The notes under the pieces are model-generated. The model made no database searches. It was not told the origin of the DNA and saw only the letters and a list, made by a program, of their open reading frames with translations. Both the position numbers and the translations under genes were made by a program. From assembly GCA_035084275.1 (NCBI GenBank), contig CM068757.1, forward strand, positions 15,438,001 to 15,502,000: DNA of 64,000 bases, given 5' to 3'. Positions 6,001-64,000 of this stretch are shown here, piece after piece (positions within the stretch are counted from its first letter, which is position 1; each line of letters opens with the position of its first letter). The stretch comes from Hydrolagus colliei (Eukaryota).

Positions 6001-6133
6001 GTGATTGAAACAGTTGTTGATGTTGTAGTTGGAGTCACTGTTAATATGGTGGTTGTAGCAGCTGTTGATGTGGTTGTGGAAGGCACTGTTGATGTGGTTG
6101 TGGGAGGCACTGTTGATGTGGTGGTCGAAGAAG
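1..6133 (-). CDS. Central PTS/CysD exon of the MUC5-like mucin (open to window edge)
   Basis: The minus frame reads PTTTSTxx repeats running in frame into CysD domains. It is absent from the ORF track, probably because no stop lies inside the window. The acceptor at 6133 is inferred from phase. Confidence 0.9.
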
Positions 6134-42919: not shown

Positions 42920-43585
42920 TTATGCATGCTTTAACTGCCTCTTCATATTTGCTCGCTGAACACGTCTTCGCTTTCTTTCCTCTGGTTTGTAGTCTTGAGA
43001 CCCATTTTTGAGGCTTTCTGATTTATTTTTGTTACTGTTATTGGATGATGTACCACCTTTACTCAATGATAGGTTATGTTTGTTTGCTTTTGAATTATTC
43101 AAGGTAGATTTTTCAACAACCAGGCTGCTTGTACCTGAGCTTGATTTTTCTGAAGACATCCTGCTTTGACTGGTTATGTTTGTTATTTCCTCACAGTCCA
43201 GTTTTACACAATTACATTCATCAACATAGATGTAATGGTGTTGAATAAAGCTTCCATCAGGGCACATCAAGAGAATTTCCTTGTCATGGGTCTTTGTCTC
43301 TCGACAGCAAGTGCACTTGTGGTCCATTGAATTTGCTTCTGTAGAATACCTATTGATGATGAGAGATGACATAAGAGGATGAAATATGGAATATGGGACA
43401 CTTTTAGGCAAATGAAACGACTAAACTGGTGGCAGATATTCCTAATGAAAAGCTTGATACTTACATGGAGTAAGCATCACACGTCCCTTCACATGATGCG
43501 GTTTCCACCACCTCTGGAGCCACACAGCCTTGGTACTTAATCTGGGTCTTTTGTTTTAGACGCTTACAATTCTCCTTCTGATGAC
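42920..43585 (-). CDS. Cystine-knot (CK) exons and C-terminal tail
   Basis: CEGTCDAYSMYSTEANSMDHKCTCCRETKT...LMCPDGSFIQHHYIYVDECNC, then the tail to the stop at 42920. Confidence 0.93.
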
Positions 43586-46500
43586 CTATAGTTATGAGTT
43601 AAATGTGTCAATTTAGAATACCATATTGGACTTATTGTGGAATGGTAGTTATGTAAATTATAGATGACAAAAACATTACTTTTCAGCCTGAAAAAAGAAT
43701 GTTCAAAAAAGGATGTTCAAGAATGTTTCCACAATGGAGTCCATCCTGTAGCCTCTCCTCCTCCCTTTCCTCCTTCAAGGCCGGTCTCAAGACCTTCCTC
43801 TTCGACCGCGCCTTTGCCTGCCCCACTAACTCTTCCCCCTCTCCCACTCTCCTTCCCCGAACTTCGACCCTCCCCCCACCCCCCCTGCCCCCCCCATCCC
43901 CGCTCCGACCAGACTGTTCAGCGCTTTGGGACGTCCTCCCGACGTGAAAGACCCTATATAAGCGCAATGTTTTTTTTTTTGTTGTTGTTGTGTTCATTAA
44001 GACTTGTAGATGTACACAAGTCCTCAAACTTGTAAGGCAAATCTCTAATAGTTTTGGGTAGATAAGTTTCACGAAATGTAGCAATATTTCATACAATTTC
44101 ATGATTTGATGATGCAAATAGTTAGCAATTTATAAAACAGCCTTACATTGATCATATAGAAAACATAAAAGATTATAAATATTCAGCACTCACATATTTT
44201 ACAGCAGCCATTTTCACTTGTAGTAATTGTTCCCTGTAACAGAAACCACAATGTTCTTTGCAAAATAATGTCATTAAAATCTGTTACATTTAATTATATT
44301 TCCTAAAATGAAACTGCCAACCTGATGGCAGGAAGAATGCTCAAATTTATATTCTTTATAACAAGAGAAATAATTTTCCAATTCCAATTTTTATTTCGGT
44401 CAGCCGGGTGACTGGACTCCCTTCCTCACTCCCTTCGCCTCTCCCCCTCTCTTCTCAGTTTCAGGTCCCAGCTAAAGAACTTTCTCTTCAACCGTGCCTT
44501 TGGTCACCTTTCTACCCCTGCCCCTGGCTCGGTCCCAGGATTCGTTGTTGTGAAGCGCTCTGAGACACTGTCCGCTATATAAATCGAAGTTGTTGTTGTT
44601 GCCTAACACACATAGAAACCCATCACTGTATTTACGTATCTCCATATTGAGCAGAGTTTCACTATGTATGCCACATGGGAAATTTAGGGCTATCATGTGC
44701 AGAACTGAGTGAGAAGATTTCCTGCCTCAATTGACTAGATGTCCCCCACCCGCCACCCACCTCTTCTTCTGTCTTAAATCTAAACAAACATGTTTAATTT
44801 AAAATTCACGTAAAACTACAATCAAGCAGTTACTTAGAATTTGTGCACACTTACTGGCTCACAGTCATCTTCATCAAAATCAGGGCAAATTACGTTGGAA
44901 ACATTAAGTAAAATAATGTTGTGGATTTGCGTGCATCCAAAAACCGTACAGTTGTTGTAAGGTGACGGCAACTCATCCCCAGGCTAGAATGTTATGGAAA
45001 TAAAGATAGAAATGAGATGTAAAAAGTAGCCATAAGACTAACTAAAATAATACGATTGGTTCTAAGGATAAATCGTAATGAATCTCTTTATTTATTATCT
45101 AATTTAAAAAAAAGTAAAATTATACAAACCGGCAGTAGAATGACAGATTGGTCGCCAAGATCTACCAAGCATTTAACTTGGACACATGTACCACAACATG
45201 CATCTGTCATTTCTTGATATTCAAAACCCTGTTGCAAAATAATGAGATACTTCCATTAAAAAGTTTGGAATGATAATAGCTTTCCATAATTTTTTTTCAT
45301 CAGATTTTACAATTTTGTCCCATACATATCCAGCATTAATCTTTTTGGGGTTGTTAAGAGTTTTTCTTAATCCTAGTTTTCTCTTGTCTATATTAGGGCA
45401 CATGCCATTCATGGACAATCTGCTCTGAGGTTCGTTTGGATTGACCATTAAGCTTGCATCCTACTCCGGTCCCCACCTGATTGTTCAGCACCTAGGGACA
45501 TCCTCCCGACGTGAAAGGCGCTCTAAAAATGTAATTTTGTTGTTGTTGGCTCCTAGTCAGCTCTGTAAAGCGACTATGAGACAACATCCTGATATGAAAG
45601 GTGCTATAAATATGTAAAATTGTGGTTGTAGTTCCAGCGTTCTCCCCCCATATATTCACTACAAAAAAATATTTGAATAAGTATCAAATATATGAATTCT
45701 TACTTGTTCACACTCCTTGTTACATTCAACATTTTGGCAACTAATTTTGTTCAGCTGAGTTTCTGGGTTGGTTTCATTGGTACATGTACACTTTAGACAT
45801 TTGCTCAAAGGAATATCTGCTCCGGGCTGTACACAGGAGAGAGAACAGGTTAATCAATTGCTATATTTTTACTTAAATTCAACTAAGTAAATAACATTTC
45901 TTAAAATTGCAAAGTGGAACAGGTTGGTAAGATTTCAGACGGTTACAAATGTTAACTGATAAAAAGAAAATCAACTTACACGATACTCGGCCCCTTCATT
46001 TACACAAACACCCATTGGCTCTGCAATGCACAAATCAAACAATACATTCAGTAAAATAATTTAATTCAAGTACCAAATTAATCCTACAGAATAATAGTAT
46101 TATTTCATGGCCAAAAGAATTCCATATTGAACACTGAAAGGCGCTCTATAAATGCAATTTTGTTGTTGAAAGTTACTATACAAATACAATTTTCTTGTTG
46201 TTGATATAAAACACTGATAGGTAACTTATACTAATATTAATTTGCATTTTAAAAGTGCTTTTCAAATAAAACAATGTCTCAAAGCACTTGACAAATAAAA
46301 TACAATTTACATTTATGAAAATTGTAGTTCACATTATTGGCTGAAAATCACTTTCAGCCATGTATTATTGGAAGAATTTTATTCATCCCAAAATATCCCA
46401 AATTCAGTTCTTACACAACTAAGTTAAATATCTGGAGTTCTGACAAAGGATTGTGGATCCGAAATGTTGACTCACTTTCCTTTCTCCATAGATGCTCTCT

Positions 46501-49500
46501 GATCTGCTGAGTGTTCCCAGCGATTTCTGTTTTCTTTATGTTGAATATCTAGTACTTTTATCATAATAATCCTGGCATTTGGTGTAGTCTCAAATATTGA
46601 GACATCTCATAGCATTTCACAGGATATACAGTGAATTTACTATATTTTGGGCGAAATGTGGCAACCAATTCCGCACACTTTTGCCAAGGTTTCTCTATGT
46701 GTTCAGAAAAACAAAATACTTCTTTAACTTACCACATGTAGAAACTGGACAGCACTTTCCATCTGGGGTTTTTGTTACAATGTTAAATCCAAGGTCACAT
46801 TTAATTTCCGTTGAATTGCAAAGGCTGATGATGCACTCTAGGTAAACCACAGTGCATATGTTAGGCAAATGAAATTGCTGCAAATTTCTCCCAAATTAAT
46901 TTTGCTTTTACCCCATGAAATCAAATTAGATAAGTTGATCACAATGTGTGACTGAGCCCTGGAGACTGGAACACTTCCAATTTTGGAAACAAATAGCTTG
47001 TCTAACACTTAGTCAGTTATAGCATGATTTGTGCAGAATGAAATTTCCGATAAATTCTCCTATCAAATACAATAAAACCCTGAGAACTTGACCCGGCTTC
47101 ACTCGTCAATAATAGTAATAATCTTTGCATTTGACATAATACTTTTGACATCTTCTAGATGTCTCAAAGCGCTTCAAGGAATATACAGTGTCTGTATATT
47201 TGATGACGAAATGCGACGGCCATTTGCGCACAGCAGTGTCCCATAAACAGTCTAGGATTGACATAACCAATTTATTATTGATGTTTTTCTTCGGATTATT
47301 ATCAGGCGTGTGGGGTAAGAAAACTTTTCCCCTGATGGGAATTGAACCCAGGTTTCTCACTTGCAAAGCGAGTGCTCTAACCACTGATCTACAGGACTCG
47401 ATACTGTCAACATTCTGGCCATATTAATTTAAGTATTTGTACATACGACTAACTTGCAACTCAAGCACTTTGTCCTTGAAGCAACCATTATCCAGAGTTT
47501 AAAGTACTTGCAAATTGTGTACAGCATGACATTTTACTTCCACAACAGACACTCGCTGAGAGAGATTTGGATACTATGTGCTGAACTACAGACAGTATTA
47601 TACCCTGCACGTTAGTTAGTAAGACTGGACAGAATGCTAAAATCATGGTGGGGGTGGGATTGTCATTTTTGAGCTCTCACATGAATTGTTTCTTCCAAGA
47701 CGTATTGTAGAAATGTACCGATCGCAGATTTGAAAAATCCATTGTCCAAATGTTTTATAATAGTAATCTTATTGTGTAACATTTCAATAAGCAACTTACT
47801 GCACTCTGTTTCCAAGCAACAATGATCCTCTGGGTTTGTCACTGTAGCCATAACAAATCCATCTCCGTCACAGGTTATCGTCGGGGAAGATGCACATTCG
47901 TGTGGCTGACAGATAACTTGTTGTGTAACGTTATCACAGATGCAATCTTGACATTGAAATTCAAAGCTTTCTCCAAACTGTTGGAAAAAAGTACTAAGAG
48001 TAAAACAATGGATTCTCATAGTGCTTTAGAAATTTGCAGAAAATTACAAGCTGTGTTGCTGATATCATCAACAATAGGATAACAGTATTTCAGATAACCT
48101 TTATAAATGGAAGAGGGACATGGATAGGAGTTTCATCCCACCAGTTTGGGCTGGATTTAATTCCAGGTTCCACAGACTCAATAAACATAATGATAGTTCA
48201 TATAATATCTTATCACTCTACATGTAAAATGCTTTACACAATCACTTTGAAGTGAGTTCTGATGAAAGATCATCGACCTGAAATGTTAACTCACTTGCCT
48301 CTCTCCATAGCTGCTGTATGGCCTGCTGAATGTTCTATTTTTATTTTGAGTAGCTGTGACACAATTGTAAGTGGGAACCCTAATTTGCACAAGTAATGTT
48401 CTAGAAACAGCAATGATATAAATCAATGTTTTTTTCCCCCCAATCACTAGGGAGAATAACGTTCTCCTTTTGGAATGGATCAGAAAACTCCAGCAAGGAG
48501 TTGGTGAAGACAGGTATAATGGTTTGGGTGCATTTAGTAGGGTGATAGGAGCAGAGGCGGTGGATGTAGTGGAGGTGAAGCAAAGCAGTTTTGGTTAGAG
48601 AACGGATGTGAGGGGAAAAAGGAAAGCTGAAGTTTAAACTAAGTACAAGGATGCACACTTGAAAGAGTTTAGTTAGTTTGTTTGAGAGGTCAGGGAGCTT
48701 GAGGAGGTCAGAGCCAGAAGTGGTGGACGGAGGATAACAACAGCTCAACAACTTGCACTTATATAGTGCCCTCCATGCAGTGTGGCATCTCAGGGCTTAA
48801 ATGCTCAGATGATAATAATAGTAATTCTTGCTTTTGATCTAACGCTTTTCAAGTCTTCTACATGTCTAAAAGTGCTTCACAGAATATACTGTAAAGTGAA
48901 TTGACTGTACATTTGTGGGCCACAGTGTCCCACAGCACAGCAGTGTCCCACAAACAGTTGTGGATTGAAATGACCAATTTATTATAGTTTTACTGTATGT
49001 CTTGTCCATATTTAGTTGCAGGAAATCTTGGCTCATTGATGCCTTCATGTGTGCCAGGCAAGTGGACAAAATATCAGTGATAAACGGATGATGTCACTAA
49101 GAAGGAGTATGTAGATGAGGAAGAGCAGCAGGCCGAGAATAGAGACCTAAGGTACTCCACAGGTGAGAGGATGAGACGAGAAAGGTTGGAGGAGATGAAG
49201 TGAAGTTAGTGGGTTAAATAGGATTAAAACTAGGAGAGTGACGTCCCATGGAGGTGGATGAGGCTAGGTGATTGTAATCACCGAGTGATTACAATTACTT
49301 CACTGAGTGATCAGCAGTGAAGTGACAGAGGAGTGGAGCTCCTGTGGCTTAGTGGTTAGAGCACTTGTCTTGCAAGCTGGGGAGACCGAGCTGGGGAAAC
49401 CTGTGTTCGAATCCAGGCAGGTCAGGGCAAAACCTTGGGCAAGTTTCCTTACACCACATGCCTAATAATAATCTGTCCAAAAAAACCCACAATAAATAAA

Positions 49501-52500
49501 ATTGGTCATTCACTCCATGACTGTTGGTGGGACACTGCTGTGCGCAATTGGCTGCCGCGATTCGCCCACAAATATACAGTCAATTCACTTTACAGTATAT
49601 TCTGTGAAGCGTTTTGGGACGTTGATAAGATGTGAAAAGCGCTATATCAAATGCAAAGATTATTAGAGAGGCATGGTGGAAGCTAGACTAGAATTTCTGA
49701 GGGAGTGGAGGGAAAGATGGGAATGGAATTGCGTGGCAACAACACGTTCCAAGGCTTTGAAATAGCAAGGGTAGGTTGACTATGGGATGAGTTTGGAAAG
49801 ATTAAGGGTAGTTTGAGGAGGTGGTGACTATTTAATTTTCATCATGTTAATAATATTGATTGTATAGTGTATTTATCGATGTAGAATCAATGGAATCAAC
49901 ATAAATATTGTTAATAGCTTTGTTAATTCTAATAGTAGAACATGGTATTACAAACAAGGATTTTGATCAGAATGTATACCTCTCTGTGTACTCCATCAGG
50001 TCCCATGCATCCTTCTGTAGACAGAAACAAACATACTTCCGCTTAGACTAAAACTTTTCTGACTGTACATAAGTAACATTTGAAATCACATCTAAAAAAT
50101 AGAAAAAAATGAGAATTATTTAGAATATTTACCCCATTTGTCTACACATATATCACTCCCGGGGCTGAAATTGATGGTATTGCCTGGACAGAAGCATCCT
50201 TCTGGCTGTAGAACATTTTCATTGCTTTTAAAAAAAAATACTGTTAATAATAATTGTTTAAACAAATCATATTCCAACTTTACCAATGTGTTAGTTTTTG
50301 GTATTGTAACTAACCTTGAAGTGCAAGTTTGTTCCTTAGAACTCTCACATGTTTTGTAAATCTTGTTTGCTGGACATTTGAAGGCTGTATTGAAGAATAA
50401 GAAAGAAAACATTAACTCAGAATAATGAATAAGTGTGTTGCAAAACTACAGTTGGAGGATATGGTTGATAAGGGGACCTGCTTTTCCTTCTCCTCAGCTC
50501 CAGAGGGACATCTTAACACACAGCATCCTCTCTGCGCTGCATCCACCCAACTGTGGTTCTTGCCGCTGCCATGAGAGGACAGTTGTTGAGGAGGCAGGGA
50601 GTGGCAGCCCGAAGTTGGAAATGGTTCTCAGACTAGATTAAATCATCCCCTAGACTGGATGCGGCCCACGGTTGGCAAGTTGGACCACTATGGTGTATGT
50701 AGTTATGTATCTAAATCTGTAAGATTCAGATACATTTGGAATTGAAAGCTTATTTGTTAATTGGAAATAGATTCAGTGTGATACCTGATATATTTCCGTT
50801 CTTATTTTGTGGCGACTAAAGAGCGATTTCCCGTGGTTTTATTGAGTTAGTCCGAGCTTGATCTTTTGTGCTAATATCTTTTCCCTCATGCTGCTGAGAC
50901 CCTCATTCATGCAATCATTATGTCCAGGCTTGACAATGCTAACTCCCTGCTCACTGGACTTCCTAATTCTTTCCTCCACAAGCCGCAGATTATTGCAAAT
51001 TGTCCTGTCTTAAATCAAGCTTGCCGGGCTCCATTGGCTCCCAATCCCTCAAAGGATTGAGTTTAAAATCCTCCTTTTCACTTTTAAAGTTCCCTATGGT
51101 CTTACACCTCCTTTTTAACACTGTACCAACCTGTCCAGTCCCTTTACTTGGTGGGCACTGGCCTGTTTCTTGTCCTCCACACTGCCTGCCCATCATTGAT
51201 TTCAGCTTTTCTACACCCACCCCCTGGTACTCCATCGTGAATTCCTCTGGCTCATCCTCTCACTTGCCTTCTTCAAGGCCTGTCTCAACAACTTCTTCTT
51301 TGACCATGCTTTCGGCCACCCTCTACCCTTCATTCATCTTGATTCCATCCCCCAGCTCAGGTGCAAACCCATAATTATCCAGCAGCTTAGAATATCCTTC
51401 CATTTTGTAAGGCACTTGTAAAGTTGTTGTTCCTAAGGTACAGAATAATTAAATAAGTCATGTATTTTGTTTTACTTACAGCATTGTCCTCCGGTGTAAT
51501 TTCTCCAGTCAATGCAGAGTTGTTTCTTTGACATGCACTCAGCTGCATACATTTGCAAACTACTGCATGCCTTTTGGGTATCTTGGTTTACACATCCATC
51601 AATGACGCAAGCATCGTAGTAAAAGTTTGATGAAAAGCCATGGTCGCACAATTCAAACAATCTGAAAGCATTAAGCATCATTCATTAGGCTTCCAGATGA
51701 ATTATTGTTCAACACATTATTGATATAAACGAAACATTCTGTTTCCTCCTCCAAGAGTTTGTTCATTCATTAAATTATTTATTTATTTAATTAATTAAAG
51801 TGGAGTTTTATTAAATGTAAACAATTTTCTGAAATAAATCTGTTTACTAGATCCAGTAGAAATTCCACAATGGTAGATTTATAGCTTTTCCATTTGACTT
51901 TGGCCATTTTTTTTATCAAGCATGTCTAGCGGACTTTACAGCATTGCCCCTATGTCCCATTAAAACCTTCATATCATGTATTGTATTTGTTAGATGCAGA
52001 GAAGCATCCTCAACTGTATCGAGGGCTACTCACAGAAGAAAATCAATTATAGTACTTACAGCTTTACAATGGCTTTTGGAATTAGACTTTAATTAAATAA
52101 TTTTCTACAATTCCATGGTATCTTAAGGTGTCAGCCCTTCTGAATTGAAACCACTTATTTCTGACTGAGGAAATGATAGTCTCAAGTCTGATGTCAGGAC
52201 CTTTAAAATCATATAATCTGTGCTGACACTACAATGCAATCCTGGGGTGGGCTGCATTGTTGGAGCTGTTGTCCTTCAGAAAAGATGTTAAAACCAAGTT
52301 CCTCTTTCGAGATGGTGTTAAAGATCCCATAGAACTACTGTATTGAAAGTAATCAGTCAAAATGACCTTCAATGTTTAGAAAAGTTTAAATATTTGGCAC
52401 AGTCCAATCCCTTACTTGCTTTTAAACAGGTTGCAGACAGAATTTGAGCTGCAAGGATGTTGTGTTATTTGGTCATTGGGTGTCACTTGGGGTCGTGGAG

Positions 52501-55500
52501 TTGCAGGTGGTGAGGGTGGAGCATTACAGTTTGGCTTGTTGGGATCGTTGATTTGCCAGTGAGCAGCCATTTCAGAGCAGGAGGATGCCTGATTTCCATT
52601 TGGTAGCATACAGTCATCACTTTGGTCATTAGTGCATGTTCCTGTGAAGACATGATATGAGAGCATGTCAATTATATTTATATAGATGTATTCAAAATAT
52701 TCTTTAATGGATATTACACTTAATCGTTTGTGAATTGCACTTATCCTACTTTGTATTTCACCCACACAACACACACTATAATTTTACAGTATATCCTGTG
52801 AAGTGCATTGAGACTCTTTGATGACGTAAAAAGATTAAGTAGAAGGATTATTACATTTCATATGAAAGTTGGATGAACAAACCCATAAGTGATCTTGATC
52901 TGATCATAGAATCGTAGAATTATACAGCACAGAAGGAGGCCATTTGGCCCAACTTGTCTGTGCTGGCTCTTTGAATAAAGCTATCCTAATCAATCTCACT
53001 TCCCCATGCTCTTCCCATAGCCTTGCAAACCTGTCCTTCCCAAATAATTTTCTACCTCTCTCTTAAAAGTTGTTACCAAATCGGCTTCCACCACTCTTTG
53101 ATTATGGCTTTGCTATATATATATATATCACCAACATTTTTTTCTTTTATAAGTCAAAGCTCTTAAGTGCCCTTTTTAATGAATAAGAAAACAAAGAGCA
53201 TTCTTACCACACTGTCCCTGTGTATTGTTTCCAAAAAATTTGTTTGGGAGTTTGACTGAGAAACCCATGCCATTGAAGATAATCTGTGCCTCTATTTCAG
53301 GAATTTCTACTGTTACATGAGTGGTTAAACTGAAGATGCTCACTCCATAATTTGAGTATGGCAGTGAAACATTAGTTCCTTTTACAGTCACCTGGTGATA
53401 GAATAAAGAATCAAAAAATTATGTTTAATTAGCACATGGCTGTAGTCTAGTAACACATACGGTAAAATATTCCTATGGAAGAATAGATGTAAAAATGATA
53501 GTTACCAGAAATTGACCTCCATTCGTACTATTGTTTTTTATTTGTATTTCTACTTTGTTGAATTTAACAATCATGGTACGTGGACAGGATGATCCTTCCT
53601 GTGCATTGCATTCATAATTGTCGATGTAAACTCCAAAGTTATGTACTGCATTGATTTCCTCTACGAGAACATAAGTACAACTTCCTTCATAATTGTACTG
53701 TTGCCCATCAAATGTAACATAATGTGAGCCACCCCATCCGCTGCAATGGCCTGTGTGAACATTATGTTTGGTTAATATTCATTTAATCTCAGTAACAATG
53801 TAACATTGCCTCACTCAAAAAAAGACATTAAAAGCTTATTTTGTATTTGTCGGAAACGTTATGTTCATGCAGGGACAGGCCCTTACAGTGGGGTTTCTCA
53901 TTCTAAGCATTTCTTCCTAAAGTAATTATATTCCCTGAGAAGTGGAAAATAACTCCCATTTTAGAATTCGCTTCATTTTCAGATAATCATTCTCCTCAAT
54001 TGATGGTGCTGACTCTTGCTGTTGTTCAGGTATTTTCTGAAATACCTTTCTTAATGCACTCTACCTATCACACTTTGGCTTACAAGGTTCACAGGAGCTG
54101 AGTGGGAAGAATTCCTGCCACACCAAGGTCTGCGAATGCGCTTGGTGTACTTATCTGTAATCAGCAGTGCCATTGAGACTGGCACAGAAATTAATTCTAA
54201 AATTCTGTTAGCAAGCACATTTGGAGCCAGTTCAGCTCCAAAGATGCCCCACCTAGATGTGTGTCTAAGCTGCACAACAACAACAAAATTACATTTATAG
54301 AGCGCCTTTCACGTCAGGAGGACAGTCAGGACACAAGTATGCTGGGAATGTTTTCCTTCATTTAATGCTGATCATGCTCATCAACAAAAAGCTTGCAGGG
54401 AGTTTCCTGGTGCCTGTTTTCCTAGAGAGGGTTCAAACCTTTTCTTGTTGGATGTCAAATCACCAGCTTAGCTGGCTTCAAGTTGATGTGCTGTGTTGGA
54501 ATGGAGTCTACTTTGACAAACTTATTCATTTTTCTTATGATAATAATATTGATATTCAATTATATGTACTACAGTGCTTTTATGTAAAGTTCACCCTCTC
54601 AAATCTTAAGGTTTTTAAAAGTATGTATACAAAGCAAAACCAGAAGATGTCTGGCAGACATTTTTTGGCACCCAAAGTAAGTAAGGGGAATTAAGTTAAG
54701 TATTGGTGTAAAATATTCTCATGGGATAACATTCAAACATAACAAAACATTATATAAACAAAATATTTCCATCATATATCATTATTCAAATGTACATAAT
54801 AAGCAAATGATTACATGAAATGGAAAATATTTGGAAAAATGTGCTTTTAGAAAGGATTCCATGCAATTTGAAAATACTTACAGCTACATTCAGATTGGAG
54901 ACAGCAGTGGTACTCATCATAAACTTGGGCAGGTGAATAGCCATTGGCACAGATGATATTTTCAACAGGGGGACATACTATAGGTGTTATAGCTACTACA
55001 TTATTTATGATGCATGTTGCCATGAGACAGTCACAGATATGCCAGGTCTCATTATGCTAAATTAAAGAAAAGTACAGAAGTTAAAAGGACCTTGATAAAT
55101 TCACTTACAAAATATCAAACATTTGTTATCAGTTAGTAAGTCTTGACAACCATAAATGCATTGTTCAATCAGTTATCTAAATCTCCGACAATTAGGATAT
55201 GTACAATAATACACATGTAAGTTGCACTTATTTTATAGCTACTATGTTGGTTCTTGCTCATTCGCATTTTTTTTATATCAGGTAGTTTGTGGATTATTGT
55301 TCAGTCATATTTTCCTCTCCAAAAACACCATCCTAAACATTATTTCTGTATTTCTTATTGTGTTAAAATCAAAATTAATTGCATTAACCTATTCTTTTCT
55401 AGGACCTCAATAACTGGTTAACCTCTGAGACTGATATAGAGGAGGTGCCTAGCTGGGAGACACACCTGAAATGTGAAATACTTACCAGTCTTGGCGGATC

Positions 55501-58500
55501 AAAATCAGGACAATCTGGTGTTGTGGTTATTGTGGATTCAACTGTTGTTTGTTCAGCAGTAGTCATAGATTCGGTTGATGTTTCAGTCTTGGAGCTTGTA
55601 GTTGGTTGAGTTGTTATGCTGACACAAGGTTCAATATGTTTTTCGATAATGCATGTTTCATTACAGAATGCCCAAATACAGTACCCTGTTTTATCAGTGT
55701 AGTTGTACAAAATTGCACCTAAAATGTACACAAAAGATGATGTTTCATAGTAGAAATAGTTCAAACTTATTTAGTTATTATCACAGAAAACATTAACCTA
55801 AACAATTGTAAACACACTGTGTCTACAATAAAATGAATATTTTACACCTAATGGATGTTTCAAAGCATAATTTTAATTAAGATGTTCAAAAAGGAAGTTG
55901 AATTCTTAAGAAAAAAAAGGTTATAACAGACAAAATGTATTTCCAGGATATGATAACTAAGTTTTTGAAAGAGATTATAGATTTAATGTCTTTGTGGAGA
56001 CCTGTAGCTCAGTGGTTAGAGCACTTGTCTTGCAAGGAAGAGGTTCGATTCCAGGCAAGGCGGAACCTTAGGCAAGTTTCCTTACTCCACACGCCTACTA
56101 ATAATCCCTCAAAAAAAACAATAACGAATTGGTCATTTCAATCCATGTCTATTTGTGTGCAATTGGGTGTCGCGTTTTGCTTACACATACAGTCAATTCA
56201 CTTTACAGTATACTACGTGAACCGCTTTGAGATGTCTAGAAGACGTGAAAAGTGCTACATCAAATGCAAGGTAATCCTTGCATTTGATGTAGCACTTTTC
56301 ACGTCTTCTCATTATTATACTTTCAGGATTCTCTCTCTACCACCTTTTCATCAAACTTCCCATTAAACTGGAGCAACTGGGATTTTTTTCCATTTGAACA
56401 AAAAAGGTTGAGAGATTTGGTTGATTGAAGTTTGGGGGTATTTAAAACTCTGAAAAGTTTTCACAGTCAACAGAGGGTTTGTTGTTATTTGAGGTTTTTA
56501 AAATTATGAAGGGTTTTCATGGAGTCAATAGGTAGAAATTGTTTGCACCATTAGTTGTGACTTGAATGCAACAATTGAGCAAATGAGAAGATTAAATGCT
56601 GTGAGTAGTGTTTGATGTAGAATCCATATTAGCTTTCAAAAGGGAACTAGATAAATATCTGATATGGAGTAAGATACATAGATTTGGGGGTAAGGGCGGA
56701 TAAATTAAATTGAAGAGATTTGAATTGCTCTTTTCAAAGGGCCAGCACAGACTCGATGGGTCAAATGGCCTCCTTTTGTGCCGTAACATTCTATGATTTG
56801 TCTTATAAGAACCAACACCAACAGAATGGTCTGAATGCTATTCTTCTGTGCTGCAAATATCTGTGGTTCCATGGCGCATTTCCTTATTGTAACTTTTAAG
56901 TAATTCAATATAGATGTCAGCCTGACTCAATTAGTAGTATTCGTGCATCTGAGCCAGAAAAGTATGAGTTCAAGCTTCATGTTGGAAGTGTGAGCTCAGT
57001 TGATGATGACACGCACATTTAGTGTTGGAGGAGGGTTGTAATGTTGGAGGTACCGATCTTCCGATAATATGTTGAAATCAAGTTTACATTTACTTGTTTA
57101 GATGGATATTAAAGGTACTATCATACTATTTGAAAAAGTGAAGGCAGGTTTTCTCCAACAACAATCCACCAGATAAAAAAATGATAAGTCACCTTGTCAA
57201 ATGCAAGGATTATGATTAGAATTAATAACTTTAATGTTATTAAATATAGCAATAATATAATGCTTAGTTTGTAATAGTTATTGGTTTGAATTTTCTGGAA
57301 CACATTAAAAGTATTATACTATGATCTGCACAGGGGAACACAGATATGTTTTTACTCTGAAATGTTCAATTTCAAGATCTCAAAATTAAATACAGGACAG
57401 GGTTTACCTATTTTGCGAATTGTGCTAGAGTTCCTAACTTCCTCACTATTTGATGTTTTGGCAAAGAGAGGCGAAGAAGTGAAATAAAAAATTTAAAACA
57501 TGAATAAAACATAATTTACCTTGTGGATAGACTGTGCCATTCAAGATACAGAAGCATTCTGTAGTAGAAGGCAAATATCTTGTACTCGGTGAAGTGGAGG
57601 AAGAAAATAATACCGAACTAGAGGTAAATGCAGAACTACTTGAAGGAAACTTGATAGTAGTTCCAGTTAAGGAAGTTGTTGGTGTGAGTGTGGATGGGGT
57701 TACTGCAACAGTAATAGTGGCAATTGTCGTCCATACAGTGGAGGTGCTAGATGATACGTTCCTTGTAGTCACACTGCTAGATGTAACTGAAATAGAAGGC
57801 GATTGAGATGGAGTTGTGAAGGAAGCTGGTGATTCTGGAGACAATGTTGTCTGAAGAGATTTTTCGGACGTAGTGCTTGTCAGTTCTGTGGTCTCTGCAA
57901 CATCAGTTGTTTCTGACATTTCTGTTGTACAAATTGTAGTTGTCTCTGTGTAAGCAGTTGGTGATGATGTTGCAGGAGTTGCTGTCGAGACAGAAGTGCT
58001 GGTTGTTGTAGACGGTATAGATGGAGTAACATGGCTTACAGGTGATGAAGGAATTGAAGTTATTTCTGTGGGTGATTCTGTTGTGAACGTAGATGACTGA
58101 GAAACAGTTGTGTACGTTGCTTCTGTTTTGACTGGAGGAAATGTTTTGGAGACCATGGGGGTGCTTGTTGTTGGTGAAGCTGTTGGAACACTTGCACTTG
58201 GAGTTGTTGATGGAGTTCCAGCAGTTGGTGTGGAGCCAGCAGTGCTGATTGTCTCAGGTGTTTTTGATCCTGGTGAGGTTGATGATAGAATTGGTGTCTC
58301 TGTCATTACAGAAGTCGTGCCTGAAGAAGTTGTTGTTTCAATGACTTTAGTTGTGGATAGTGCAGACGTAGAAAAGGAGCTCTTGCTTGTTTCTTCAGTA
58401 GGGCTAGGAGGAGTGGGTCCAGTACTAGTTGTGGACGTGGGGGTTGCAGAAGAAGGAGTACCAATGGATACAGTTGGAGTCGTTGGGTTAATAATTACAG

Positions 58501-61500
58501 TGGTGGAAGATGTATGTGGAGAAATATTGGTCTTGGTGCTTGTTTCTGCAGTGGCGTTTGGAAAAGTTGGTGGAGTTCCAGGTGTGCTCTTGGGCGTTGG
58601 AGACGACGGAGTACCTGTGGATCTGGTAGGAGATGGCTCAGTTATTTCAGTGATGAATGGTGTTGATGTAGAAAATGTTCCTTCCTCTGGTGTACCAGTC
58701 TGTATTTCTCCAATAGGTGGTGTTGTTATGGAGTGAATGGTTGTTTTCTGTGTGCTAGATGATGTTGTTGGTGGGCCAGCGGTGCTTGTTGTTGTGGGTG
58801 TTTCGGATGGTGTAACTGTGGGTGTCCCAGTTGTGGTTGGGGTCGAAGTGGAAGGAGTGGTTGATGTGCTGCTTGTTGCTTCTGTTGGAGTTGTTGGAAC
58901 ACCTATGGTTGTTGTTGGTGTGTGTGTTGTTGGTGTGTGTGTCGGACTCTCTGTCGTTTCTGTGGGTTCGGATGTACAGATTGTGGTTGTTTCCTCTGTG
59001 CTAGCTGATGTTGTTGGCGGGCCAGGGGTGCTCGTTGTTTTGGGTGTTTTGGATGGTGTAACTGTGGGTGTCCCAGTCGTGCTCAATGATGTTGATGGTG
59101 GAAACGGCGTCCCTGTACTAACAGATGTTGATGGAGTTGAAGTTGACAATATTGGTGTTTGAGTGGTTGAAAAGGTAGATGGAGAAAATGTGCTCTTGCT
59201 GCTTGTTCCTTCAGTTGGTGTAGTGGATGGAGTTCCAATTGTTGTGGTTGGCGTCGAAGTGGTAGGAGTGGTTGTTGTCCTACTTGTTCCTTCTGTTGGA
59301 GTTGTTGGAATGCCTGTGGGTGTTGCTGTTGATATTGTAGTGGTCGAGCTGGGGGGTGGAACCTTTGGTGTTTCTGTGGTTTTGGATGTAGAGATTGTGG
59401 TTGTTTCCTCTGTGCTAGATGATGTTGTTGGTGGGCCAGCGGTGCTTGTTGTTGTGGGTGTTTTGGGTGGTGTAACTGTGGGTGTCCCAGTTGTGGTTGG
59501 GGTCGAAGTAGAAGGAGTGGTTGATGTGCTGCTTGTTCCTTCTGTTGGAGTTGTTGGAATACCTATGGTTGTTGTTTTTGTGTGTGTTGTTGGTGTGTGT
59601 GTCGGACTCTCTGTCGTTTCTGTGGGTTCGGATGTACAGATTGTGGTTGTTTCCTCTGTGCTAGCTGATGTTGTTGGCGGGCCAGGGGTGCTCGTTGTTT
59701 TGGATGGTGTAACTGTGGGTGTCCCAGTCGTGCTCAATGATGTTGATGGTGGAAACGGCGTCCCTGTGCTAACAGATGTTGATTGAGTTGAAGTTGACAA
59801 TGTTGGTGTTTGAGTGGTTGATAAGGTAGATGGAGAAAACGTGCTCTTGCTGCTTGTTCCTTCGATTGGTGCAGTGGATGGAGTTCCAATTGTTGTGGTT
59901 GGGGTTGAAGTGGTAGGAGTGGTTGTTGTCCTACTTGTTCCTTCTGTTGGAGTTGTTGGAATGCCTGTGGGTGTTGTTGGTGTGTGTGTTGAAGTTGTAG
60001 TGGTCGGACTCTCTGTCGTTTCTGTGGTTTTGGATGTAGAGATTGTGGTTGTTTCCTCTGTGCTAGATGATGTTGTTGGTGGACTAGCGGTGCTTGTTGT
60101 TGTGGGTGTTTTGGATGGTGTAACTGTGGGTGTCCCAGTTGTGGTTGGGGTCGAAGTAGAAGGAGTGGTTGATGTGCTGCTTGTTCCTTCTGTTGGCGTT
60201 GTTGGAAAACCTATGGTTGTTGTTGGTGTGTGTGTTGTAGTGGTCGGACTCTCTGTCGTTTCTGTGGGTTCGGATGTACAGATTGTGGTTGTTTCCTCTG
60301 TGCTAGCTGATGTTGTTGGCGGGCCAGGGGTGCTCGTTGTTTTGGGTGTTTTGGATGGTGTAACTGTGGGTGTCCCAGTCGTGCTCAATGATGTTGATGG
60401 TGGAAACGGCGTCCCTGTACTAACAGATGTTGATGGAGTTGAAGTTGACAATATTGGTGTTTGAGTGGTTGATAAGGTAGATGGAGAAAATGTGCTCTTG
60501 CTGCTTGTTCCTTCAGTTGGTGTAGTGGATGGAGTTCCAATTGTTGTGGTTGGCGTCGAAGTGGTAGGAGTGGTTGTTGTCCTACTTGTTCCTTCTGTTG
60601 GAGTTGTTGGAATGCCTGTGGGTGTTGCTGTTGATATTGTAGTGGTCGAGCTGGGGGGTGGAACCTTTGGTGTTTCTGTGGTTTTGGATGTAGAGATTGT
60701 GGTTGTTTCCTCTGTGCTAGATGATGTTGTTGGTGGGCCAGCGGTGCTTGTTGTTGTGGGTGTTTTGGGTGGTGTAACTGTGGGTGTCCCAGTTGTGGTT
60801 GGGGTCGAAGTAGAAGGAGTGGTTGATGTGCTGCTTGTTCCTTCTGTTGGAGTTGTTGGAATACCTATGGTTGTTGTTGGTGTGTTTGTTGTTGGTGTGT
60901 GTGTCGGACTCTCTGTCGTTTCTGTGGGTTCGGATGTACAGATTGTGGTTGTTTCCTCTGTGCTAGCTGATGTTGTTGGCGGGCCAGGGGTGCTCGTTGT
61001 TTTGGATGGTGTAACTGTGGGTGTCCCAGTCGTGCTCAATGATGTTGATGGTGGAAACGGCGTCCCTGTGCTAACAGATGTTGATTGAGTTGAAGTTGAC
61101 AATGTTGGTGTTTGAGTGGTTGATAAGGTAGATGGAGAAAACGTGCTCTTGCTGCTTGTTCCTTCGATTGGTGCAGTGGATGGAGTTCCAATTGTTGTGG
61201 TTGGGGTTGAAGTGGTAGGAGTGGTTGTTGTCCTACTTGTTCCTTCTGTTGGAGTTGTTGGAATGCCTGTGGGTGTTGTTGGTGTGTGTGTTGAAGTTGT
61301 AGTGGTCGGACTCTCTGTCGTTTCTGTGGTTTTGGATGTAGAGATTGTGGTTGTTTCCTCTGTGCTAGATGATGTTGTTGGTGGACTAGCGGTGCTTGTT
61401 GTTGTGGGTGTTTTGGATGGTGTAACTGTGGGTGTCCCAGTTGTGGTTGGGGTCGAAGTAGAAGGAGTGGTTGATGTGCTGCTTGTTCCTTCTGTTGGCG

Positions 61501-64000
61501 TTGTTGGAAAACCTATGGTTGTTGTTGGTGTGTGTGTTGTAGTGGTCGGACTCTCTGTCGTTTCTGTGGGTTCGGATGTACAGATTGTGGTTGTTTCCTC
61601 TGTGCTAGCTGATGTTGTTGGCGGGCCAGGGGTGCTCGTTGTTTTGGGTGTTTTGGATGGTGTAACTGTGGGTGTCCCAGTCGTGCTCAATGATGTTGAT
61701 GGTGGAAACGGCGTCCCTGTACTAACAGATGTTGATGGAGTTGAAGTTGACAATATTGGTGTTTGAGTGGTTGATAAGGTAGATGGAGAAAATGTGCTCT
61801 TGCTGCTTGTTCCTTCAGTTGGTGTAGTGGATGGAGTTCCAATTGTTGTGGTTGGCGTCGAAGTGGTAGGAGTGGTTGTTGTCCTACTTGTTCCTTCTGT
61901 TGGAGTTGTTGGAATGCCTGTGGGTGTTGCTGTTGATATTGTAGTGGTCGAGCTGGGGGGTGGAACCTTTGGTGTTTCTGTGGTTTTGGATGTAGAGATT
62001 GTGGTTGTTTCCTCTGTGCTAGATGATGTTGTTGGTGGGCCAGCGGTGCTTGTTGTTGTGGGTGTTTTGGGTGGTGTAACTGTGGGTGTCCCAGTTGTGG
62101 TTGGGGTCGAAGTAGAAGGAGTGGTTGATGTGCTGCTTGTTCCTTCTGTTGGAGTTGTTGGAATACCTATGGTTGTTGTTTTTGTGTGTGTTGTTGGTGT
62201 GTGTGTCGGACTCTCTGTCGTTTCTGTGGGTTCGGATGTACAGATTGTGGTTGTTTCCTCTGTGCTAGCTGATGTTGTTGGCGGGCCAGGGGTGCTCGTT
62301 GTTTTGGATGGTGTAACTGTGGGTGTCCCAGTCGTGCTCAATGATGTTGATGGTGGAAACGGCGTCCCTGTGCTAACAGATGTTGATTGAGTTGAAGTTG
62401 ACAATGTTGGTGTTTGAGTGGTTGATAAGGTAGATGGAGAAAACGTGCTCTTGCTGCTTGTTCCTTCGATTGGTGCAGTGGATGGAGTTCCAATTGTTGT
62501 GGTTGGGGTTGAAGTGGTAGGAGTGGTTGTTGTCCTACTTGTTCCTTCTGTTGGAGTTGTTGGAATGCCTGTGGGTGTTGTTGGTGTGTGTGTTGAAGTT
62601 GTAGTGGTCGGACTCTCTGTCGTTTCTGTGGTTTTGGATGTAGAGATTGTGGTTGTTTCCTCTGTGCTAGATGATGTTGTTGGTGGACTAGCGGTGCTTG
62701 TTGTTGTGGGTGTTTTGGATGGTGTAACTGTGGGTGTCCCAGTTGTGGTTGGGGTCGAAGTAGAAGGAGTGGTTGATGTGCTGCTTGTTCCTTCTGTTGG
62801 CGTTGTTGGAAAACCTATGGTTGTTGTTGGTGTGTGTGTTGTAGTGGTCAGACTCTCTGTCGTTTCTGTGGGTTCGGATGTACAGATTGTGGTTGTTTCC
62901 TCTGTGCTAGCTGATGTTGTTGGCGGGCCAGGGGTGCTCGTTGTTTTGGGTGTTTTGGATGGTGTAACTGTGGGTGTCCCAGTCGTGCTCAATGATGTTG
63001 ATGGTGGAAACGGCGTCCCTGTGCTAACAGATGTTGATGGAGTTGAAGTTGACAATATTGGTGTTTGAGTGGTTGATAAGGTAGATGGAGAAAATGTGCT
63101 CTTGCTGCTTGTTCCTTCAGTTGGTGTAGTGGATGGAGTTCCAATTGTTGTGGTTGGCGTCGAAGTGGTAGGAGTGGTTGTTGTCCTACTTGTTCCTTCT
63201 GTTGGAGTTGTTGGAATGCCTGTGGGTGTTGCTGTTGATATTGTAGTGGTCGAGCTGGGGGGTGGAACCTTTGGTGTTTCTGTGGTTTTGGATGTAGAGA
63301 TTGTGGTTGTTTCCTCTGTGCTAGATGATGTTGTTGGTGGGCCAGCGGTGCTTGTTGTTGTGGGTGTTTTGGGTGGTGTAACTGTGGGTGTCCCAGTTGT
63401 GGTTGGGGTCGAAGTAGAAGGAGTGGTTGATGTGCTGCTTGTTCCTTCTGTTGGAGTTGTTGGAATACCTATGGTTGTTGTTGGTGTGTGTGTTGTTGGT
63501 GTGTGTGTCGGACTCTCTGTCGTTTCTGTGGGTTCGGATGTACAGATTGTGGTTGTTTCCTCTGTGCTAGCTGATGTTGTTGGCGGGCCAGGGGTGCTCG
63601 TTGTTTTGGATGGTGTAACTGTGGGTGTCCCAGTCGTGCTCAATGATGTTGATGGTGGAAACGGCGTCCCTGTGCTAACAGATGTTGATTGAGTTGAAGT
63701 TGACAATGTTGGTGTTTGAGTGGTTGATAAGGTAGATGGAGAAAACGTGCTCTTGCTGCTTGTTCCTTCGATTGGTGCAGTGGATGGAGTTCCAATTGTT
63801 GTGGTTGGGGTTGAAGTGGTAGGAGTGGTTGTTGTCCTACTTGTTCCTTCTGTTGGAGTTGTTGGAATGCCTGTGGGTGTTGTTGGTGTGTGTGTTGAAG
63901 TTGTAGTGGTCGGACTCTCTGTCGTTTCTGTGGTTTTGGATGTAGAGATTGTGGTTGTTTCCTCTGTGCTAGATGATGTTGTTGGTGGACTCGCGGTGCT
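42920..64000 (-). CDS. MUC2: MUC2-like gel-forming mucin, 3' part: PTS exon plus 18 exons for VWD4, C8, TIL, VWC-like and cystine knot
   Basis: In-frame exons: 57520->64000, 55486-55718, 54882-55056, 53506-53750, 53208-53391, 52416-52641, 51480-51661, 50315-50384, 50133-50224, 49980-50011/50014, 47800-47977, 46733-46837, 45980-46020, 45704-45826, 45130-45228, 44855-44983, 44194-44233, 43465-43585, 42920-43349. MUC2-type motifs CPDFDPPR, NETW..CDC.MATC, TYVLVEEI...NFGVYIDNY, SCPRT, FGNNTQGQCGTCTN..SDDC, REFGESFEF. It lies upstream of a MUC5-like gene in the same orientation, as in the MUC6-MUC2-MUC5AC-MUC5B cluster. Confidence 0.88.
46438..46535 (+). mobile_element. Short dispersed repeat resembling a Penelope-like element terminus (second copy near 48258-48350)
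   Basis: Both copies share TTCTGA...GAAATGTT.ACTCACTT..CTCCATAG.TGCT...CTGCTGA; family assignment is from recall only. Confidence 0.45.
49333..49665 (+). mobile_element. Full-length SINE inserted in an antisense L2 fragment
   Basis: tRNA head, Deu core GCTGTGCGCAATTGGCTGCCGCG, tail GCTATATCAAATGCAAAGATTATT; flanks near 48990-49830 are purine-rich and L2-like. Confidence 0.85.
57520..64000 (-). CDS. Large PTS (mucin domain) exon of the MUC2-like gene
   Basis: >2000-aa Thr/Ser/Pro-rich ORF ending ECFCILNGTVYPQ, with donor G|GTAAAT at 57520. Confidence 0.95.
58740..64000 (-). repeat. Coding tandem repeat: 1302-bp unit made of two alternating 651-bp (217-aa) subunits
   Basis: Homologous positions at 59163, 59814, 60465, 61116, 61767, 62418 and 63069; alternate units are near-identical. 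Confidence 0.96.

What the first reader, a model, noticed from the sequence alone, without database searches (positions are those of the whole stretch)
53722..53733. MUC2-like mucin has GGSH in place of the autocatalytic GDPH site in VWD4
Seen: the exon reads CHCSGWGGSHYVTFDG, while the flanking sequence is strongly MUC2-type (TYVLVEEI, NFGVYIDNY, SCPRT, CPDFDPPR). Known: mammalian MUC2 and MUC5AC carry GDPH here and undergo Asp-Pro self-cleavage, proposed to yield a reactive anhydride for cross-linking; human MUC5B has GGSH. Inference: this protein cannot self-cleave there. Either GGSH arose convergently or this is a distinct paralogue.
Basis: partly seen in the sequence, partly recalled or inferred. 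Interest (0 to 1): 0.7.

Follow-up and report, generated by a model that had tools for sequence, protein, structure and literature searches.

The report
Cartilaginous-fish MUC2 lacks self-cleavage motif
This is the MUC2 mucus gene of a chimaera-like cartilaginous fish, and where most bony-vertebrate MUC2 proteins carry the self-cutting motif GDPH it carries GGSH, as do all six cartilaginous-fish MUC2 sequences found, so the protein likely stays uncut there, a change that several other mucins, human MUC5B among them, likely made independently.

Summary
GGSH is real: minus strand 53733-53722, inside an open spliced exon, and unchanged in contigs of independent runs. The gene is the genome's single MUC2 orthologue, not MUC5B or an odd paralogue. 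N- and C-terminal trees place it with MUC2 (100/99-100), an AU test rejects grouping with MUC5B (p=3e-5), and it has the MUC2-specific extra VWCN cysteine, a basic tail and a head-to-head MUC6-like neighbour. GGSH is not peculiar to this animal: 6 of 6 cartilaginous-fish MUC2 sequences have it, elephant shark included, against 202 of 220 bony-vertebrate MUC2-type D4 domains with GDPH. The next gene (MUC5-type, 5' part in the window) keeps GDPH; its five shark and ray orthologues do not. GGSH sits in six separate places on the tree, so it is a recurrent, probably convergent 'off' state, two transitions from GDPH. Loss of cleavage is inferred from published Asp mutants of FCGBP, not tested. I found no paper noting this distribution; earlier scan notes hold no mucin case like it. 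Verdict: real, modest, a new variant of a known kind.

The parts
53722..53733 (-). GGSH tetrapeptide in the beta1-beta2 turn of VWD4 of gene A (MUC2), at the position of GDPH in human MUC2
   Evidence: turn position from PMC10880436
53506..53750 (-). First VWD4 exon of gene A, AG/GT bounded; keeps the Cys before the motif
54882..55056 (-). VWCN exon of gene A; its first Cys (about 55035-55033, in WHICDC) aligns with human MUC2 C4379, the MUC2-specific inter-chain disulfide
   Evidence: C4379 from PMC10082768
55486..55718 (-). Linker exon of gene A ending in CPDFDPPRL
57520..64000 (-). 3' end of the giant PTS exon of gene A; the open frame is 7338 codons (G000:C24:15517462-15495449), 73% T+S+P, with one CysD at its start, and runs beyond the window
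50133..53391 (-). Remaining VWD4, C8 and TIL exons of gene A (53391-53208, 52641-52416, 51661-51480, 50384-50315, 50224-50133)
44194..50014 (-). Cys-rich stalk (VWC-type) exons of gene A, eight exons
42920..43585 (-). Cystine-knot exons and long tail of gene A ending ...ERKRRRVQRANMKRQLKHA*, a furin-type basic tail as in MUC2
   Evidence: MUC2 tail from PMC10082768
10596..30183 (-). D1-D2-D3 exons of gene B, the downstream MUC5-type mucin; its D2 turn also reads GGSH (23421-23410); start codon not located
1..6233 (-). PTS/CysD exon of gene B (2340 codons, 10 CysD), running off the window; the VWD4 of gene B, just outside (G000:C24:15431904-15431893), reads GDPH

Best explanation
The exon encodes the VWD4 domain of the single MUC2 gene of a chimaera-like cartilaginous fish, with GGSH in place of GDPH, so the chain is predicted to stay uncut at this turn while the mucin likely still polymerises through disulfides. 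Shown: the sequence, an intact C-terminal reading frame, MUC2 orthology, and GGSH in every cartilaginous-fish MUC2 found. Inferred: (1) no Asp means no nucleophile and no Asp-Pro bond, hence no self-cleavage; (2) the polymer is held, as in human MUC2, by the cystine knot and the C4379-type VWCN disulfide, both conserved, so cleavage is dispensable; (3) the change was fixed once in the MUC2 of the common ancestor of chimaeras, sharks and rays, and arose separately in shark and ray MUC5-type mucins, in mammalian MUC5B and in several teleost mucins; (4) GGSH recurs because it is two single transitions from GDPH (GAY to GGY, CCN to TCN) and is a turn that uncleaved D2 domains of the same proteins already use.
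For: C-terminal tree without the two motif columns: gene A with Callorhinchus, Chiloscyllium, Scyliorhinus and Mobula (100/99), inside MUC2 (100/100; 62 rows; 100/99 under a mixture model, 34 rows). N-terminal tree: gene A sister to 9 named MUC2 (100/99). AU tests reject joining the clade with MUC5B (p 2.9e-5) or with gene B's clade (p 4e-9). C4379 equivalent in gene A and 182 of 194 scored MUC2-type rows, against 1 of 117 MUC5-type. One CysD against ten in gene B. Head-to-head with a D1-D3-only mucin, the Muc6-Muc2 layout of PMC4948705. Only two VWCN exons in the assembly, genes A and B. GGSH in 6 of 6 cartilaginous-fish MUC2. Asp-to-Ala/Asn blocks cleavage in FCGBP D10 (PMC10880436). GDSH (6 rows) and GGPH (1 row) intermediates exist among 357 rows.
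Against: Cleavage and expression were not tested. The mutant data are from FCGBP, not MUC2. No lamprey or hagfish D4 was identified, so direction rests on GDPH being the majority state in MUC2, MUC5AC, teleost Muc5 and gene B; change counts do not give direction. Only six cartilaginous-fish MUC2 sequences, one (Rhincodon P0390) from an apparently fused model that was left out of the D4 trees. TOLLIP, the usual neighbour of the cluster, lies 8.7 Mb away, so synteny supports from one side only. The branching of the cartilaginous clade within MUC2 is unresolved. The D3 polymerising cysteines were not checked.
Confidence: 0.88

Rival explanations
1. The gene is a MUC5B-type gene, or a paralogue allied to MUC5B, and inherited GGSH from a common ancestor with MUC5B.
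For: Same tetrapeptide as human MUC5B (PMC6851316) and as bonobo and sifaka MUC5B.
Against: D4 region 47.6% identical to a human-type MUC2, 37.6% to bonobo MUC5B. Both trees place it in MUC2. AU p 2.9e-5. Non-primate members of the MUC5B clade have GNSH, GQSH, DNSN or SNSD, so GGSH there is not basal.
Confidence: 0.02
2. GGSH is a positively selected, pre-stabilised 'off' turn: once Asp is lost an uncleaved X-Pro turn is harmful, so selection drives the site to GGSH, and cartilaginous fishes were under a shared pressure to drop D4 cleavage.
For: Uncleavable GNPH and GDPN mutants of FCGBP are less stable and protease-sensitive (PMC10880436). Of 77 D4 rows without Asp-Pro, 61 lack both residues, 12 keep only Asp, 4 only Pro. 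GGSH is the commonest alternative (21 of 357). Sharks and rays: 0 of 9 D4 with GDPH.
Against: Rows are not independent events; more than 40 other tetrapeptides occur; mutational ease predicts the same end point; the chimaera's gene B keeps GDPH under the same physiology.
Confidence: 0.35
3. GGSH is ancestral for jawed-vertebrate MUC2 and GDPH was regained in bony vertebrates, or GGSH was copied in by short gene conversion from a D2 exon or the neighbouring mucin.
For: Cartilaginous fishes branch first in the N-terminal MUC2 tree. D2 turns in the cluster read GGSH or GGAH. Sharks have GGSH in both tandem genes.
Against: Bichir, gar, bowfin, coelacanth and tetrapod MUC2, MUC5AC, many teleost Muc5 and gene B all have GDPH. 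Residues on both sides of the motif stay gene-specific (YVTFDGQ in A-type, YLTFDGT in B-type). Gene A's own D2 is GGAH. A tract of a few codons cannot be excluded.
Confidence: 0.07
4. Sequencing or assembly error, or a decaying copy.
For: None found.
Against: Two base changes are needed; the same protein motif stands in contigs of a second study and two other organisms and in five other species' proteins; the frame is open over 19 exons and a 7338-codon exon.
Confidence: 0.01

Closest known systems
Callorhinchus milii intestinal mucin-like protein XP_007909903.1 (P0002)
   Same: 90% identical over the D4 region; same GGSH, same extra VWCN Cys; a second C. milii model holds the same basic tail (P0151).
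   Different: A different species; the public record is an automatic prediction and I found no comment on the motif.
Human MUC2 (C-terminal structures 7QCN, 7QCL, 7QCU; PMC10082768)
   Same: Domain order D1-D2-D3-CysD-PTS-VWCN-D4-stalk-CK, C4379 equivalent, multibasic tail, tree position.
   Different: GDPH, cleaved at acid pH, is replaced by GGSH; only one CysD was found in gene A (human MUC2 has two; recalled).
Human MUC5B
   Same: Works alike at this site: GGSH in D4, with no reported C-terminal cleavage (PMC6851316).
   Different: Different clade (AU p 2.9e-5); MUC5B lacks the extra VWCN Cys and the basic tail.
GDPH-cleaved VWD domains (FCGBP, MUC5AC, BMPER, RGM)
   Same: Same fold position; Gly and His and the tethering Cys before the motif are kept.
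   Different: The catalytic Asp and the Pro are absent.

Membership tests
MUC2 orthologues | Groups with named MUC2 in the D4-region tree, motif columns removed | tested here: met
   100/100, 100/99 with mixture model
MUC2 orthologues | Groups with named MUC2 in the D1-D3 tree | tested here: met
   100/99, 971 columns, rooted on three D1-D3-only mucins
MUC2 orthologues | Domain order D1-D2-D3-CysD/PTS-VWCN-D4-CK | tested here: met
   the signal-peptide exon was not located
MUC2 orthologues | Extra VWCN cysteine (human C4379) | tested here: met
   WHICDC aligns with WWLCDC; C4379 defined in PMC10082768
MUC2 orthologues | Multibasic furin-type tail after the cystine knot | tested here: met
   RKRRR in the last exon; cleavage itself not tested
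MUC2 orthologues | Head-to-head with MUC6 and followed by MUC5 | tested here: met
   + strand D1-D3 mucin without VWCN/D4 at C24:15572-15613 kb, gene B downstream; no named MUC6 was in the tree, so 'MUC6-like' rests on architecture, orientation and outgroup position
MUC2 orthologues | TOLLIP tail-to-tail at the end of the cluster | tested here: not met
   The CUE exon that I read as TOLLIP (name recalled) is at C24:6.72 Mb with no mucin in the next 120 kb; this concerns gene B's side and suggests a rearrangement or scaffolding join
MUC2 orthologues | Main expression in intestinal goblet cells | not testable with these tools
   No RNA holder listed
MUC2 orthologues | D3 cysteines for N-terminal polymerisation | not tested
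   D3 exons are present; the cysteines were not mapped
MUC5B orthologues | Forms a clade with amniote MUC5B | tested here: not met
   AU p 2.9e-5
MUC5B orthologues | GGSH in D4 | tested here: met
   but the motif occurs in six separate places of the tree, so it does not define the family
MUC5B orthologues | Many CysD domains, no extra VWCN Cys | tested here: not met
   One CysD, extra Cys present
Self-cleaving (GDPH) VWD domains | Asp-Pro bond in the beta1-beta2 turn | tested here: not met
   Gly-Ser instead
Self-cleaving (GDPH) VWD domains | Cleavage seen on reduced gels at low pH | not testable with these tools
   needs recombinant protein

The most novel reading that the evidence does not exclude
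Cartilaginous fishes dropped D4 self-cleavage twice in parallel: in MUC2 before chimaeras and sharks split, and in the MUC5-type gene in sharks and rays, leaving them with no self-cleaving gel mucin (0 of 9 D4 sampled). GGSH is a selected, stable 'off' turn that vertebrate mucins reached about six times. It offers a natural, well-folded non-cleaving substitution with which to test what MUC2's GDPH cleavage is for.
Probability: 0.35. Interest if true: 0.5.

Novelty: new variant of a known kind. Interest (0 to 1): 0.3.

Why it matters
The purpose of GDPH cleavage in VWD domains is stated to be unknown (PMC10880436). A whole vertebrate class whose MUC2 apparently lacks it argues that cleavage is not needed to build a MUC2 gel, and fits the newer view that the anhydride is hydrolysed rather than cross-linked. 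GGSH also gives experimenters a substitution tested by evolution, where laboratory mutants such as GNPH are destabilised. It warns that GGSH does not identify MUC5B and that automatic names for shark mucins mislead. The effect is modest: MUC5B already shows a gel mucin working without the site, and GDPH loss is common among fish and frog paralogues.

Tried and rejected
Expression: no RNA holder listed; no evidence either way. Raw reads: only contigs were offered. GDPH of gene B in other organisms: confirmed only in X5 (organism A); X11 and X7 do not cover the motif, and no X6 contig bridges it, so whether other chimaeras keep it is open. A second MUC2 with GDPH: three own-genome searches found only genes A and B; candidates were capped at 48, 50 and 5 and the assembly may be incomplete. 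TOLLIP synteny failed. The protein atlas gave no answer for a MUC6-like exon. The primary MUC5AC cleavage paper (PMC1570170) is not held; it and the 2003 MUC2 paper are known to me only as citations. Paper search matched 'eggshell' and was useless. The FastTree grouping of gene B's clade beside MUC2 (long outgroup) was not reproduced as a supported group in the rooted N-terminal tree, so gene B is called MUC5-type on identity (54% to sparrow MUC5AC, 48% to chicken MUC2), ten CysD and position; its exact place is unresolved. A link to stomach loss in chimaeras (recalled) was rejected because sharks, which have stomachs, share GGSH. No structure was predicted, since a model cannot show cleavage. 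Earlier scan notes concern GDPH in microbes and viruses and did not bear on this.

Full report
Observation. The minus strand at 53733-53722 reads GGT GGC TCA CAT, Gly-Gly-Ser-His. It lies in an AG/GT-bounded exon at 53750-53506. A spliced model of 19 exons from the end of the PTS exon (57559) to the stop (42920) is open throughout and gives ...ECSCHCSGWGGSHYVTFDGQQYNYEGSCTYVLVEEI.... The best single-domain match among solved structures is human MUC2 D4 (7qcn, E 1.9e-25), with GGSH opposite GDPH. Of 12 runs listed, 4 were laid on this stretch, all contigs. X5 (organism A, second study) spans the exon with 0 differences. X6 (organism B) differs in the motif only by a silent base. X11 (organism C) agrees at depth 2 near a contig end. 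X4 agrees but may be the source.

The locus. The window is G000:C24:15438001-15502000. I read 464 kb around it. Gene A runs on the minus strand from about 15545 kb to 15481 kb: D1, D2, D3, one 7338-codon exon with a single CysD and 73% Thr+Ser+Pro, then VWCN, D4, stalk and cystine knot. Gene B follows on the same strand (15468-15419 kb), has ten CysD, and its D4 reads GDPH. Upstream, head-to-head with gene A, lie three plus-strand mucins with D1-D3 and no VWCN or D4 match. PMC4948705 (abstract, passages, sections 12 and 13 read; supplements not read) describes Muc6 head-to-head with Muc2, then Muc5, then Tollip, also in cartilaginous fish. The first three fit. The Tollip-like CUE exon is instead 8.7 Mb away with no mucin in the 120 kb behind it (the gene name is my recall from the sequence). 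A search with the VWCN exon found 2 matches among 5 candidates, genes A and B; searches with both D4 exons found the same two as the only strong hits. So the assembly holds one MUC2-type gene and no MUC2 with GDPH. The closest protein is Callorhinchus milii XP_007909903 (87% over the exon; 90% over the D4 region), so the animal is probably another holocephalan (inference).

Orthology. I aligned 357 D4-type assemblies found among the proteins plus genes A and B. For the careful tree I chose 62 of the 357, mostly named and spread over lineages, and dropped the two variable motif columns. Gene A joins Callorhinchus, Chiloscyllium, Scyliorhinus and Mobula (100/99), inside a 27-row MUC2 group (100/100). 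A 34-row mixture-model tree agrees. An independent D1-D3 tree (32 rows, 971 columns, rooted on the three plus-strand genes) puts gene A beside 9 named MUC2 (100/99) and gene B with Pristis, Cetorhinus and Rhincodon. Gene A keeps the cysteine that aligns with human C4379, which makes a MUC2-specific inter-chain disulfide (PMC10082768, passages read). That column is Cys in 182 of 194 scored MUC2-type rows and 1 of 117 MUC5-type rows; 45 rows had a gap. Gene A also ends in a long tail with RKRRR, like the furin-cut MUC2 tail; gene B does not.

Distribution of the motif. Of 357 rows, 279 have Asp-Pro and 21 have GGSH, the commonest alternative; over 40 other tetrapeptides occur. With one non-mucin row (P0194) dropped and rows sorted by nearest anchor: MUC2-type 226 rows, 202 GDPH, 10 GGSH; MUC5-type 130 rows, 77 with Asp-Pro, 11 GGSH. 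Rows include isoforms and are weighted to amniote MUC2, so these are not species counts. All 6 cartilaginous MUC2-type rows have GGSH: gene A, Callorhinchus, Chiloscyllium, Scyliorhinus, Mobula, Rhincodon. The other 220 hold 202 GDPH. In gene B's clade the chimaera has GDPH but Heptranchias, Scyliorhinus and Cetorhinus have GGSH, Pristiophorus GGTH and Pristis AGTY, so sharks and rays show 0 of 9. On the 62-row tree GGSH sits in six separate places: cartilaginous MUC2, shark MUC5-type, grass carp, Gouania, a teleost Muc5 clade (Scleropages, chum salmon, Acanthochromis) and primate MUC5B. It needs at least 8 changes for GGSH against the rest and 9 for GDPH against the rest; such counts do not give direction.

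Mechanism. PMC6851316 (passages) states that MUC2 and MUC5AC have GDPH in D4, that MUC5B has GGSH, and that no MUC5B C-terminal cleavage is reported. PMC10880436 (parts 1-4 of 7 read: abstract, introduction, results, discussion) shows in FCGBP D10 that Asp-to-Ala or Asn and His-to-Asn block cleavage, that uncleaved mutants are less stable and trypsin-sensitive, and says the purpose of cleavage is unknown. From this I infer that gene A's D4 is not cut. The polymer would still form through the cystine knot and the VWCN cysteine, both conserved. The cross-linking role is doubtful in print: the FCGBP anhydride was found hydrolysed (PMC8267560, passages) and the Asp buried (PMC11796319, passages). 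Why GGSH recurs is open. It is two single transitions from GDPH (genetic code), the intermediates GDSH (6 rows) and GGPH (1 row) exist, and D2 domains in this cluster already use GGSH or GGAH. Of 77 rows without Asp-Pro, 61 have lost both residues, which fits either drift after loss of function or selection against an uncleaved proline turn. I favour an easy path to a tolerated turn; active selection gets 0.35.

Novelty. The motif has been in a public elephant-shark model, and the MUC5B precedent is in print. I found no paper noting GGSH in cartilaginous-fish MUC2 or mapping GDPH across fish mucins in eight searches (for only the top 20 of 32 and 25 of 4,852 papers were listed). PMC4948705 has 0 occurrences of GDPH in its main text, and PMC10707392 on shark skin mucus has 0 (passages). 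Subscription papers, and the alignments and supplements of PMC4948705, were not seen and could show it. Scan notes held nothing near this place and no vertebrate mucin case.

Verdict. Real; a true MUC2 orthologue with a class-wide, probably convergent loss of the self-cleavage motif. New variant of a known kind. Interest 0.3.

Noticed in passing
L002:1454-1656 (G000:C24:15431699-15431901), run X6: In organism B the contigs break inside gene B's D4 exon: this stretch has twice the flanking depth, one contig runs on from 1456 into sequence matching a later gene B exon about 10 kb away on the opposite strand, and no contig bridges the GDPH codons (compared). Possibly an inversion or rearranged duplicate of the MUC5-type gene.
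   Followed up: no
G000:C24:15572-15613 kb, 15638-15666 kb, 15765-15799 kb: Three plus-strand D1-D3 mucins without D4 (MUC6-like); PMC4948705 reports two in C. milii. No plus-strand open frame of 300 codons or more with over 40% T+S+P was printed for the region, so their PTS parts are short, atypical or broken.
   Followed up: partly
G000:C24:6720091-6720210 and 15358-15382 kb: The TOLLIP-like CUE exon lies 8.7 Mb from the mucin cluster; beyond gene B lie a 200-N gap (15381763-15381962) and exons that I recall as NUP160-like. A rearrangement or a scaffolding join.
   Followed up: partly
window 57520-64000 and beyond (C24:15517462-15495449): Gene A's PTS exon is one 22-kb open frame; its repeats carry single cysteines every 135-296 residues.
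   Followed up: no
P0153 (Discoglossus pictus), P0154: Mucins with five and three tandem VWCN-D4 assemblies, each with GDPH.
   Followed up: no
P0390 (Rhincodon typus 'mucin-5B-like'): Its N-terminus groups with gene B while its D4 is MUC2-type with GGSH: probably a fused annotation of two tandem genes.
   Followed up: partly
P0074 (spotted gar): Gar MUC2-type protein lacks the C4379-equivalent cysteine; 12 of 194 scored MUC2-type rows do.
   Followed up: no
window 8232-9131 (-) and 22839-23106: A 300-codon frame resembling a LINE reverse transcriptase (recalled) in an intron of gene B, and an exact 133-base tandem duplication in another intron.
   Followed up: no
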